NCBI GenBank assembly: GCA_036003195.1
Contig: DASYSP010000083.1
Coordinates: 46,054-110,053, forward strand
Reading direction: 5' to 3'
DNA from: Casimicrobiaceae bacterium
GTDB lineage: Bacteria; Pseudomonadota; Gammaproteobacteria; Burkholderiales; Casimicrobiaceae
Length of the DNA: 64,000 nucleotides
Shown piece by piece: positions 29,701 through 32,700 of the stretch. Position numbers: made by a program. Positions within the stretch are counted from its first letter, which is position 1. Each line of letters opens with the position of its first letter.

Positions 29701-32700
29701 CGCACTGGCTTTTCGCTATCTCTGCCTGACCGCGCATTACCGCACGCAACTCAATTTCACGTGGGATGCGCTGGACGCGGCGGCGACGGGGCTGGCGCGC
29801 CTGCGCGCGGGCTTCCACGCCCTGCGCGAGGACGGCTCCGCAGTGGATGCCGCGAGCGTCGACCGATTCGCGAGCCATGCCAACGACGATCTCAACATGC
29901 CGCGTGCGATGGCGGTGTTGTGGGACGTCCTGCGGGGGAGCCTCGCCGCCGGCACCAAGCGCGCGACGCTGGCCGCGCTCGACGGCGTGCTGGGACTCGG
30001 CCTCGAGCAGTGGCGGCCGCGCGAGGACGCGATCCCCGACGAGGTGCGCGCGCTGGCCGAGGCGCGGCTCGCCGCGCGCAACGCCCGCGACTGGCCGGAG
30101 TCGGACCGCCTGCGCGACGCGCTCAAGGCCGCAGGATGGGACGTCGAGGATCGCAAGGGGGCATACACGCTGAAGCGTGTCGCGCGGGGTGAAGGCGTCG
30201 CGTCGTGAAGCTGGCGACGCTTGACGACGGCTCGCGCGACGGCCGCCTCGTCGTGGTCTCGCGCGACCTCGCGCGCGCCGTGGCGGTGCCCGCCATCGCG
30301 CGCACGCTGCAGGCGGCGCTCGACGACTGGGACGCGGCCGCGCCGAAGCTTGGCGCAGTGAGTGCGACGCTGGACGCGAATGGCCACGCCGGCAGCGAGA
30401 CTTTCGACACGCGCCACGCACGGGCGCCGCTGCCGCGTGCCTACCAGTGGGTGGACGGTTCGGCCTACGTCAATCATGTCGAGCTCGTGCGCCGTGCACG
30501 CGGCGCGACGATGCCGCCGGAGTTCTGGACCGATCCGCTGATGTACCAGGGAGCCTCCGACGAAATGCTCGGCGCCGGCGCGGACATCGTGCATCGCGAC
30601 GCGTCCTGGGGCATCGACTTCGAAGCCGAAGTCGCGGTGATCACCGGCGACGTGCCGATGGGTTCCGGCGCAGTCGCCGCGCTGGCGCAGGTACGCCTGG
30701 TGATGCTGGTCAACGACGTCAGCCTGCGCAACCTCGTGCCCGCCGAGCTCGCCAAGGGCTTCGGCTTCCTGCAGTCGAAACCGGCGACGGCGTGCTCGCC
30801 CGTGGCGGTGACGCCCGACGAGCTCGGCACGGCATGGCACGACGGCAAGCTGCACCGGCCGCTCGTCACCACGCTCAACGGTTCGCCCTTCGGCCATCCG
30901 GATGCCGGCGTCGACATGACGTTCGATTTCGGCACGCTCGTCGCCCACGCTGCGCGCACGCGCAACCTTTGTGCCGGCACGATCGTCGGCTCGGGAACGG
31001 TCTCCAACCGCGAGAATGGCGGCCCGGGACGGCCCGCGGCCGATGGCGGCGCCGGCTATTCCTGCATCGCCGAGCAACGCACCGTCGAGACCCTCGTGCA
31101 AGGCGCGCCACGCACGCCATTCCTCAAAGACGGCGATCGCGTGCGCATCGAGATGCGCGATGCCGATGGGCGTACGCTGTTCGGCGCGATCGAGCAGCGT
31201 GTGCGGATCGCGCCGGCCTGACACGAGGCCGCCCGTCGTCGTTCGTCGCGCGCCGGAACCTTTGCATGCGGGGTTTTCGGCGCTTCGTCGCGTGCGCGTT
31301 GCGCGCCGCAGCCCCGGCGGCCAGGATCGCGACGTGCCGGCGACGCGCCGGCCCGGCGTGAAGCGCGCTTGCCGCGCCTTGCGCTGCGGCGCAACACCTC
31401 CTGCGCCGCGATGGTTCGCGTCACGCTCTCTCCCCCAGGGGAAGCGACCTCGCGGCCGGGCCTCTCGCGAAGCCCGGCCGTTTTTTCTAGATGACGGCGA
31501 TCGCGCCGGAGTACAGGATGGGGCCCGTGGGCAGTCCGCTCGGCGAGCCCCCCGCCGGCTCGAGGCTCACCGCCAGCCCCTTGGCGCCGGCGAAGACGCT
31601 GTCACTGGGCGCCGGCAGCACGAGGGAGGCGCCCACATTCGCGTCCACCAGGCCCACCGATCGCGGATTGCCGCTCGCCGGCAGCACCCAGAGCTCGAGG
31701 GCGCGGCCCGGCGGCACCGCGATGGGGTTGAGCGGCCGGATGCGCAATGTGCGATCCCCGCGCGACGCGGTGGCGACGAGCACGGTCTTGCCGTCGGCGG
31801 CACCGAGCGCGGCCACGAAGCTGCCCTGCGGGGGTTGCACGCTGGTCAACAGCGCGATTCCCAGCACGACCGCGGTGGCGAAGCTCGCGATGGCGGCGAC
31901 GCGCCAGATGGCGAGACGGTTCCACCATCTGCCGGAAGTGGCGACCGCGCCGGTGAAGCCCAGTCGCGCGGCAATCGCCGCATACACGCTGGGTGGCGGC
32001 GCCACCGGCGGAATGGCCTCGGCAAGTCCCGCCAAGCGCCGGTCCCAGTCGGCGATCGCCGCGGCAATGGCGGGCTCGGTCGCAGCCATGCGCTGGAGGC
32101 GCAGCCGCGCGCCGGACGACAGCGTGCCGAGCACGTACTGCGCCGCCAGGAACTCCAGGCGAGGGCGGCGATCGGGGCGGGCGATGTCCATCGTTGTCAG
32201 GCGCCGAAGCCCATCGCGTCGAGGCAACCCTTGAGGCGCTCGAGGCCGCGGCGCACCCACGACTTGACGGTCCCGAGCGGCTGGCCGAGATGGGCGGCGA
32301 GCTCGGCGTGCGACAGGCCATGGAAGAACGCCAGCGCGATCGCCTGCCGCGTGCCGCCCTGCAGTTGCTCGACGCAGTCGCGAACGCCCTGGGCCTCGGC
32401 GCCGGCGACGAGGAGTTCCGCCGCCGAGGCGCCCGGCGCCGGCACGTCGAACGCCGGCGCGTCGTCGTCGGCGCCGCTCAGCGTCACCGTGTCGATGTCG
32501 CGCCGGCGCACGTGGTCGAGGCAGCGATTGCGCACGATCGCGGTCAGCCAGGTCAGCGGCTGGCTGCGGGCAGCGGCGTAGCTCCGGGCGTGGTGCCAGA
32601 CGTTGACGAACGCTTCCTGCAAGATCTCCTCGGCAATGGGTCGCTCACGGACAATACGCAGGGCGACCGCGTATAGATGCGGCGAGGTGCGCCGATAGAG

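What the first reader, a model, noticed from the sequence alone, without database searches (positions are those of the whole stretch)
31385..31486. Unannotated sRNA candidate carrying a copy of the 16S anti-Shine-Dalgarno sequence
Seen: in a 265-bp intergenic gap, CACCTCCT (31395-31402) matches the 16S rRNA 3'-tail anti-SD core. It is followed by a short hairpin, a second pyrimidine tract CTCTCTCCCCC in a hairpin, and a strong + strand terminator with T6 ending one base before the anti-sigma stop. A TGCGGCGCAACA motif directly precedes it. On the minus strand the AGGAGG has no properly spaced start codon. Known: CU-rich anti-SD sRNAs occur in Proteobacteria (alphaproteobacterial SuhB/MmgR, betaproteobacterial toxic sRNAs) and block ribosome-binding sites. 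Inference: a new or divergent member, either independently transcribed or derived from the cysS-FAH 3' UTR. I could not find a canonical -10.
Basis: partly seen in the sequence, partly recalled or inferred. Interest (0 to 1): 0.65.

Follow-up and report, generated by a model that had tools for sequence, protein, structure and literature searches.

The report
Conserved pyrimidine-rich hairpin RNA before terminator
A short non-coding stretch is conserved in about 22 uncultured soil betaproteobacteria as a C/U-rich RNA hairpin plus a terminator hairpin, and it is probably a small regulatory RNA made from the tail of a messenger RNA; the copy of the ribosome's anti-Shine-Dalgarno sequence that drew attention is only a recent, lineage-specific addition.

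Summary
The described sequence features are all present at the stated coordinates. CACCTCCT lies in the loop of hairpin H1. CTCTCTCCCCC lies in hairpin H2. A GC hairpin with T6 abuts the rskA stop codon. CACCTCCT alone is not significant: it occurs 105 times in the genome, and only three close species keep it in part.

The conserved unit is H2 plus the GC hairpin. H2 has the consensus CGCU-YCUCU-CCCCC-AGRG-AAGCG. I found the unit as a single copy in 22 sequences of one MAG-only genus of Casimicrobiaceae. The H2 core is 89% identical across them, against about 30% for spacers and loops. The stems keep pairing through compensatory changes.

In 15 of the sequences the unit starts 10-20 nt after the stop codon of a small membrane-protein gene, here called gene X. 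Gene X has an ECF-like promoter motif. The window's clade lacks gene X but keeps the unit, which is 100% identical in three species.

No Rfam family matches. suhB scores 17.9 bits against a gathering score of 41, and RF02278 gives no hit.

Best reading: a 3'-UTR-type, possibly 3'-UTR-derived, small RNA whose C-rich loop and CU arm pair with purine-rich ribosome-binding sites. This is a new member of a common class, of moderate to low interest.

The parts
31385..31410 (+). Hairpin H1: 9-bp GC stem (UGCGGCGCA / UGCGCCGCG) with the 8-nt loop ACACCUCC. It is lineage-specific in sequence.
   Evidence: RNAfold MFE and centroid. Hairpins at the same position with unrelated stems occur in G278, G289, G290 and G260. 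CCUCC in the loop occurs only in the window, G005, G021 and G290.
31395..31402 (+). CACCTCCT, identical to the 16S 3'-tail anti-SD core of this genome.
   Evidence: The 8-mer occurs 105 times in the genome and 4 times in the window. In G005 the site reads GACCTCCT and in G021 TTCCTCCT.
31424..31446 (+). Hairpin H2, the conserved core: CGCU-C-UCUC-[CCCCA]-GGGG-A-AGCG. The CU-rich 5' arm and C-rich 5-nt loop are the candidate seed.
   Evidence: consensus fold. Each of the 15 distinct variants folds to an 8-10-bp hairpin with a C-rich loop. The core is 89% identical over 22 sequences.
31426..31437 (+). CU/C-rich tract CUCUCUCCCCCA. Its complement UGGGGGAGAGAG resembles a Shine-Dalgarno sequence.
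   Evidence: Columns C-t-c-C-C-C-C-a-G-a-G are invariant or at least 80% conserved in A9. The tract is single copy in the genome.
31452..31486 (+). Intrinsic terminator: a 9-10-bp GC stem (GGCCGGGC/GCCCGGCC core) followed by U6. It ends at the rskA stop codon.
   Evidence: three pairs show compensatory changes and 93.8% of cells are paired. 15 of 22 homologues have a T-rich tail.
31222..31384 (.). Upstream part of the intergenic gap. It is non-coding, has no recognisable promoter, and is conserved only in the two closest species.
   Evidence: Substitutions are spread evenly over codon phases on both strands. No sigma-70-like site. No ECF-like motif.
30205..31221 (+). Fumarylacetoacetate hydrolase family gene, overlapping the end of cysS (28694-30208). 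It is the likely source of read-through transcripts that carry the element in this genome.
   Evidence: Pfam PF01557/PF18288 and PF01406.
31487..32886 (-). Convergent sigK-rskA operon: ECF sigma 32197-32886 and RskA anti-sigma 31487-32260. Its 3' end abuts the terminator.
   Evidence: Pfam PF10099, PF04542 and PF08281. rskA was detected within the fetched flank in 15 of 20 genome loci and lies next to the element in 13 of them.

Best explanation
The region encodes a + strand, non-coding RNA module of about 65-105 nt. It has a variable 5' hairpin (H1), a sequence-conserved hairpin H2 and a Rho-independent terminator. H2 has a 5' arm reading YCUCU and a loop reading CCCC(C/A).

In the ancestral or sister arrangement the module is the 3' UTR of a small membrane-protein gene (gene X) that has an ECF-like promoter. 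In the window's clade gene X is absent and the module sits behind cysS-FAH. It is most likely made by read-through and terminates at 31481-31486. It is possibly trimmed to a stable 3' fragment.

Inferred mechanism: the C-rich H2 loop nucleates pairing with G/A-rich ribosome-binding sites (GGGGGAGAG-like). Pairing then extends into the CU arm and blocks translation initiation. In the window's clade the CCUCC loop of H1 adds a second anti-SD site.

Shown: conservation, structure, synteny, absence of coding signal, and absence from Rfam.
Inferred: transcription, processing, trans-action and targets.
For: - Conservation. H2 and the terminator are 100% identical in three species whose flanks are 86-94% identical. 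Covariance-model searches find one copy per genome in 20 genomes of 138 in the genus, plus 2 metagenome variants. The H2 core is 0.89 mean identity, against 0.33 for the spacer and 0.27 for the loop of hairpin 2. A conserved seed with a freely covarying terminator is the pattern typical of sRNAs.
- Divergence of the hosts. RskA is only about 50% identical at the protein level in the same species.
- Structure. Every distinct H2 variant folds into an 8-10-bp hairpin with a C-rich 5-nt loop, despite indels. The outer pairs change C-G to G-C (G275, G261) and C-G to U-A (G260, L116). Hairpin 2 shows compensatory changes: 22 cells changed on both sides, and 0 of 500 shuffles reach this.
- Strand. 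A U-tail follows hairpin 2 on the + strand only, in 15 of 22. U.G pairs in H2 would be C.A mismatches on the - strand. Gene X is on the + strand.
- Non-coding. Substitutions are evenly spread over codon phases.
- Independence from the upstream gene. The element is retained in the 7-species clade that lacks gene X.
- H1 carries CCUCC in its loop in two lineages with unrelated stems: the window clade and G290.
- Precedent. In Burkholderia double-hairpin sRNAs, CU-rich unpaired tracts are predicted to cover ribosome-binding sites (PMC5688073).
Against:
- No promoter is found in the window, so there may be no discrete RNA species.
- Most of the CU tract is base-paired within H2. Only 4-5 C residues are exposed.
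- Folding energy is equally good on the - strand.
- In 7 homologues hairpin 2 has no U-tail.
- Target sites (GGGGGAGAG at start codons of an Amt transporter, a secreted protein, pcm and an epimerase) are few and functionally unrelated. Their conservation was not tested.
- The element is restricted to part of one uncultured genus.
Confidence: 0.45

Rival explanations
1. The module is purely cis-acting at the 3' end. H2 and the GC hairpin together terminate transcription and protect the upstream mRNA (gene X, or cysS-FAH here) from 3' exonucleases. They also stop transcription from running antisense into sigK-rskA. There is no trans-acting function.
For: The module lies directly after a stop codon in 15 sequences. 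It is always at a gene end, often between convergent genes. In one clade hairpin 2 is a 16-bp UUCG-tetraloop stem without a U-tail, like a stabiliser or an I-shaped terminator. No promoter of its own is found.
Against: A terminator or stabiliser needs structure, not sequence. Yet the H2 loop and inner stem are nearly invariant (0.89), while the true terminator stem covaries freely. The module is also retained unchanged where its cognate gene X is absent.
Confidence: 0.3
2. H2 is a cis-regulatory or protein-binding element of gene X. It might fold back onto the gene X ribosome-binding site (GAGGAG/GGAGAG), or bind a protein that recognises a C-rich loop. In the window, which lacks gene X, it would be a slowly decaying relic.
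For: There is a tight physical link to gene X in 15 sequences. The gene X ribosome-binding sites are purine-rich (GAGGAGAG, AAGGAGAG) and could pair with the CU arm.
Against: The element is 100% identical across three gene-X-less species whose neighbouring non-coding DNA has diverged by 6-14%. It is kept in all 7 gene-X-less species. Relics should decay like the flanks.
Confidence: 0.12
3. The functional strand is the - strand. The element would be the rskA 3' UTR, or GGGGGAGAGAG would serve as a ribosome-binding site for the GTG-initiated ORF 31424-31056.
For: The - strand folds as well as the + strand (z = -3.4). GGAGAGAGC-GTG has plausible SD-to-start spacing.
Against: No codon-phase bias is seen in the ORF (13/12/12 substitutions). 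The ORF product is Arg-rich antisense-type sequence. rskA is not adjacent in several homologues. There is no U-tail on the - strand. In other species the ORF would be antisense to gene X, which does show a coding signature.
Confidence: 0.05

Closest known systems
Burkholderia 'double-hairpin' / Betaproteobacteria toxic small RNAs (Rfam RF02278; ncS03, ncS05, ncS27, ncS62 of B. cenocepacia; PMC5688073)
   Same: Both occur in the same bacterial order. Both are about 60-90 nt, with a first hairpin carrying a pyrimidine-rich tract, followed by a terminator hairpin and U-tail. In both, the CU-rich sequence is complementary to ribosome-binding sites.
   Different: There is no Infernal match. The element is single copy rather than 3-5 homologues per genome. 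The motif is CUCUCCCCC, largely within the stem, rather than CCUCCUCC in unpaired regions. It lies in a 3' UTR position without a detectable promoter of its own. A separate, better RF02278-like candidate exists elsewhere in this genome (C30:117536-117599, 30.9 bits).
3'-UTR-derived sRNAs of enterobacteria (CpxQ, SroC, DapZ, MicL) as a class
   Same: The element sits at the extreme 3' end of an mRNA and shares its terminator. A seed-like stretch is more conserved than the surrounding UTR. In species with gene X, expression would be tied to an envelope-stress-type (ECF-like) promoter, as for MicL and CpxQ.
   Different: There is no sequence relationship. Processing and Hfq dependence are untested. 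In the window the parental gene is absent.
C-rich-loop sRNAs of Firmicutes (RNAIII hairpins 7, 13 and 14; RsaE/RoxS UCCC motif); recalled from memory, not tested
   Same: A hairpin loop of consecutive C residues is presented for kissing interactions with G-rich Shine-Dalgarno sequences.
   Different: The phylum is unrelated and the sequence is unrelated. These are independent genes with several C-rich motifs.
suhB / MmgR (Rfam RF00519, alpha-r8)
   Same: There is a weak resemblance: a small hairpin, a CU tract and a terminator. The best Rfam sub-threshold alignment covers 31424-31495.
   Different: The score is 17.9 bits against a gathering score of 41, with E = 0.29. It is an alphaproteobacterial family, and its conserved UUUCCUCCCU single-stranded motif is absent here.

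Membership tests
Rfam RF02278 Betaproteobacteria toxic sRNA (double-hairpin RNAs) | Covariance-model score at or above the gathering score (50 bits) | tested here: not met
   No RF02278 match at E<=10 on 31150-31600, and none at gathering score in the window. The only genome hit is elsewhere (C30, 30.9 bits).
Rfam RF02278 Betaproteobacteria toxic sRNA (double-hairpin RNAs) | Two hairpins, the second being a Rho-independent terminator | tested here: met
   H2 plus terminator.
Rfam RF02278 Betaproteobacteria toxic sRNA (double-hairpin RNAs) | CCUCC-type CU-rich motifs in unpaired regions (5' tail and loop) | tested here: inconclusive
   The H1 loop has CCUCC only in the window, G005, G021 and G290. 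In the conserved H2 only CCCC(A/C) is unpaired, and the CU arm is paired.
Rfam RF02278 Betaproteobacteria toxic sRNA (double-hairpin RNAs) | Several homologous copies per genome (3-5 in Burkholderia, PMC5688073) | tested here: not met
   One copy per genome.
Rfam RF00519 suhB/MmgR | Covariance-model score at or above the gathering score (41 bits) | tested here: not met
   17.9 bits, E = 0.29.
3'-UTR-derived sRNA (functional class) | Lies between a stop codon and the mRNA's own terminator | tested here: met
   The element starts 10-22 nt after the gene X stop codon in 15 sequences. In the window it lies 163-200 nt after the FAH stop codon, with no promoter between.
3'-UTR-derived sRNA (functional class) | A discrete stable RNA species, made by processing or from an internal promoter | not testable with these tools
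The organisms are uncultured MAGs.
3'-UTR-derived sRNA (functional class) | A conserved seed complementary to conserved target sites | tested here: inconclusive
   The seed is conserved. Candidate sites in the window's own genome were listed, but their conservation in relatives was not examined.

The most novel reading that the evidence does not exclude
The module is an sRNA that arose in the 3' UTR of an ECF-controlled small membrane-protein gene and then became independent of it. In the window's clade the coding gene and its promoter are gone. The RNA has nevertheless been kept letter for letter, re-wired to read-through from cysS-FAH, and has gained an extra hairpin that displays the ribosome's own anti-SD sequence. 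This would be a natural snapshot of an sRNA outliving its parental mRNA.
Probability: 0.2. Interest if true: 0.55.

Novelty: new member of a known kind. Interest (0 to 1): 0.33.

Why it matters
If the element is expressed, it would add an uncatalogued regulatory RNA family for Casimicrobiaceae. This is an abundant but uncultured soil and sludge lineage with no described sRNAs. It would also offer a comparative example of a 3'-UTR element kept with and without its upstream gene, which bears on how 3'-UTR sRNAs evolve.

The class itself is already well populated. It consists of CU/C-rich seeds that block ribosome-binding sites, and the scan's own notes list about 200 such candidates. The distribution here is narrow, so the finding would not surprise a specialist.

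Tried and rejected
- Rfam at gathering score and at E<=10. Only sub-threshold terminator-driven hits appeared: Scr3202, suhB, SorX, ncS037 and SorY.
- Sigma-70 promoter and terminator scan. It found nothing; the terminator was missed because of its 10-nt loop.
- Paralogues in the window's own genome. None were found; only an unrelated REP-like repeat with CCCCC/GGGGG hairpins turned up.
- Genome contigs pattern scan. Only the 5 Casimicrobiaceae MAGs were real; 28 other hits were chance, with no hairpin or terminator.
- Metagenome pattern scan. It gave only 2 new variants (L116, L121) and 3 duplicates.
- A - strand ORF from GTG at 31424. Rejected because it shows no codon-phase bias.
- A small + strand ORF from ATG at 31266, 31 aa. 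Rejected because the ATG is absent in G005.
- An ECF-like promoter in the window. The motif found upstream of gene X is absent here.
- Gene X elsewhere in this genome. tblastn gave nothing better than E = 0.09.
- The idea that 31222-31384 is a decayed gene X remnant. It rests only on short, weak similarities and is not claimed.
- Using fold energy to call the strand. It is uninformative: - strand energies are equal or better.
- RNA-seq evidence.
- Pfam on gene X. No family was found.

Full report
OBSERVATION

The window region was read directly. CACCTCCT is at 31395-31402 and CTCTCTCCCCC at 31426-31436. A GC-rich inverted repeat spans 31452-31480 and T6 spans 31481-31486. The stop codon of the minus-strand gene follows immediately at 31487-31489.

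Pfam confirms the gene context:
- cysS, 28694-30208, + strand.
- A fumarylacetoacetate-hydrolase family gene (FAH), 30205-31221, + strand.
- The 265-bp gap.
- A convergent RskA-type anti-sigma gene, 31487-32260, - strand.
- An ECF sigma factor gene, 32197-32886, - strand.

RNAfold of 31375-31490 gives three hairpins with z = -3.2:
- H1, 31385-31410, with loop ACACCUCC.
- H2, 31424-31446.
- A terminator stem followed by U6.

So the anti-SD octamer is the loop of H1 rather than a sequence that precedes a hairpin. The octamer equals this genome's own 16S tail (GATCACCTCCTT at C127:1455). However, it occurs 105 times in the 3.98-Mb genome and 4 times in the window. By itself it carries no statistical weight. 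The same holds for the second pyrimidine tract.

WHAT IS CONSERVED

The genome is a MAG of a species-rich, MAG-only genus of Casimicrobiaceae (Burkholderiales); the record titles come. The two closest species, G005 and G021, share the whole gap at 94% and 86% identity. Within it, 31414-31480 has no substitution at all, whereas CACCTCCT reads GACCTCCT and TTCCTCCT.

BLAST and two rounds of covariance-model searches over all 326 genomes of the family and 138 of the genus, plus one metagenome scan, recovered 22 sequences. Each genome has one copy. All share H2 and a following GC hairpin.

The H2 consensus is CGCU-(C)-YCUCU-CCCC(C/A)-AGRG-(A)-AGCG. Mean pairwise identity by segment:
- H2 core: 0.89.
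- Spacer: 0.33.
- Loop of hairpin 2: 0.27.
- Arms of hairpin 2: 0.72-0.76.

For comparison, RskA proteins of the same species are about 50% identical and FAH about 75%.

All 15 distinct H2 variants fold into an 8-10-bp hairpin with a 5-nt C-rich loop, despite indels in the arms. The outer pairs switch C-G to G-C (G275, G261) and C-G to U-A (G260, L116). Hairpin 2 shows clear compensatory change: 22 cells changed on both sides, and 0 of 500 shuffles reach this. The inner H2 stem hardly varies, so it says little about structure. It does indicate selection on sequence.

STRAND AND CODING

Both strands fold equally well, so energy does not decide the strand. The + strand is indicated by three observations:
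- A T-rich tail follows hairpin 2 in 15 of 22 sequences, and there is no such tail on the other strand.
- Conserved U.G pairs in H2 would be C.A mismatches on the minus strand.
- The upstream gene described below is on the + strand.

Substitutions between the window and G005 or G021 across 31222-31421 fall evenly on the three codon phases (5/6/3 and 13/12/12). Neither the 122-aa minus-strand ORF starting at GTG 31424 nor any plus-strand ORF is therefore coding.

CONTEXT IN RELATIVES

In 15 of the 22 sequences the element begins 10-22 nt after the stop codon of a small gene, here called gene X.
- Gene X encodes an 84-97-aa protein with an N-terminal membrane helix and a conserved ATEVxIxPGRIDVVGVR motif.
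- It shows a coding signature: variable sites by codon position are 45/37/66.
- It has no Pfam family.
- It is preceded in every case by a two-block motif, (T)GAAWCC-N~16-GCATC(CAA), which resembles ECF-sigma promoters. That resemblance is my inference; the sigma factor is unknown.

rskA-sigK is convergent and adjacent in 13 loci but not in several others. The constant neighbour is therefore gene X, not the anti-sigma gene.

The window, G005, G021, G278, G289 and G290 have no gene X and none of the promoter motif. G292 has a divergent small ORF. tblastn finds no gene X anywhere in the window's genome. A sigK-rskA protein tree separates these seven species from the species with gene X. A single loss or a single gain explains the pattern, and the midpoint root does not say which.

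The element is kept on both sides of that split. In the gene-X-less clade it is preceded by an extra hairpin, H1, whose stem sequences are unrelated between lineages. The H1 loop contains CCUCC in the window clade and in G290 only.

In a sub-clade with gene X (G307, G230, G256, G296, G231, G279, G287), hairpin 2 is a long UUCG-tetraloop stem without a U-tail.

MECHANISM

Three patterns are what one expects of a base-pairing small RNA that shares an mRNA's 3' end:
- A sequence-invariant hairpin loop and arm next to a freely covarying terminator.
- Single-copy occurrence at the end of a transcription unit.
- Retention where the upstream gene differs.

No promoter is detectable in the window. Here the RNA would therefore come from read-through of cysS-FAH. 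In species with gene X it would come from the gene X promoter.

The exposed CCCC(A/C) loop and the CU arm are complementary to UGGGGGAGAG, which is an extended Shine-Dalgarno-like sequence. In the window's own genome, sites with at least 9 contiguous complementary bases lie just upstream of the start codons of four genes: an ammonium transporter, a secreted protein, pcm and a nucleotide-sugar epimerase. These were not checked for conservation and have no common theme, so they are leads only.

Transcription, processing and trans-action are all inferred.

RIVALS

- A purely cis-acting terminator and stabiliser module explains the position and the missing promoter. It does not explain why the loop and inner stem sequence is fixed while the real terminator stem drifts.
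- A cis-regulator of gene X fits the linkage. It does not fit the perfect conservation in three species without gene X.
- A minus-strand function is unlikely, for the reasons given under strand and coding.

COMPARISON WITH KNOWN FAMILIES

Nothing in Rfam 15 reaches the gathering score. With relaxed thresholds, the best hits are terminator-driven: suhB/MmgR at 17.9 bits against 41, SorX at 16.8 and Scr3202 at 21.5. RF02278 does not appear.

The closest analogue by architecture is the Burkholderia double-hairpin, or toxic, sRNA group. In that group CU-rich unpaired tracts are predicted to cover ribosome-binding sites (PMC5688073). The present element fails that family's model and is single-copy. 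Its CU tract is mostly paired, and it lies in a 3' UTR.

The genome does carry a better RF02278-like candidate elsewhere: C30:117536-117599, 30.9 bits, with three CCUCC motifs.

VERDICT

The element is real, conserved and non-coding, and it is probably RNA-level. This is a new member of a well-known kind. Interest is moderate to low: the distribution is narrow, the hosts are uncultured, there is no expression evidence, and the scan's own notes hold many similar candidates.

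Noticed in passing
own genome contig C30:117536-117599 (- strand), locus L176:1501-1564; outside the window: Sub-threshold match to Rfam RF02278, the Betaproteobacteria toxic/double-hairpin sRNA (30.9 bits against a gathering score of 50; E = 4.5e-4 per genome). It has three CCUCC motifs and a terminator with U6. It is a stronger anti-SD sRNA candidate than the flagged one.
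   Followed up: partly
related loci, for example L094:1239-1495, L162:1210-1488, L159:1220-1486 (upstream of the element): Gene X is a conserved 84-97-aa protein with one N-terminal membrane helix and the motif ATEVxIxPGRIDVVGVR. It has no Pfam family. It is always preceded by the two-block ECF-like motif (T)GAAWCC-N16-GCATC(CAA), which is sometimes duplicated in tandem (L094, L106).
   Followed up: partly
own genome contig C13 at 49223, 73018 and 78018 (+ strand); outside the window: Three copies of the same ECF-like motif, GAATCCG-N16-GCATCCAA, each about 40-50 nt upstream of a start codon. This may be the regulon of one ECF sigma factor, in a genome that lacks gene X.
   Followed up: no
own genome, about 15 sites, for example C102:58684/58759/58836, C103:19711/19785, C30, C45, C77: A repeated element of about 75 nt, AGCGAGCTTCGCTCG-CYTCCCCC(N2-3)GGGGG-C(G)AGCGCCTTGGGGCGGCCC..GCGCTCA, sometimes in tandem. 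It looks like a REP/MITE-like extragenic repeat family.
   Followed up: no
window 32786-32792 (- strand): The GTG start of the ECF sigma gene overlaps the TGA stop of the upstream PduO-type cobalamin adenosyltransferase gene (GTGGCTGA). That gene matches PF01923 at 1.7e-58. The sigma/anti-sigma pair therefore appears translationally coupled to a cobalamin gene.
   Followed up: partly
metagenome loci L115, L118, L123, L136, L140, L142: Six soil and rhizosphere contigs share an unrelated conserved stretch, ...GACTGGTTCCTCCCCCAGGGGAAGCCCCCCAGTTGGTGGCCGGGGGTCGCCGCC.... It was picked up by the pattern scan and may be another structured RNA.
   Followed up: no
family loci L110 (genus g18) and L104 (genus g20): Other Casimicrobiaceae genera have hairpins with CCUCCUCC-type loops directly before terminators, for example CUUUCUUC-CUCCUCCA-GAAGAAAG. 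They lie in unrelated contexts, which suggests a wider set of CU-loop sRNA candidates in the family.
   Followed up: no
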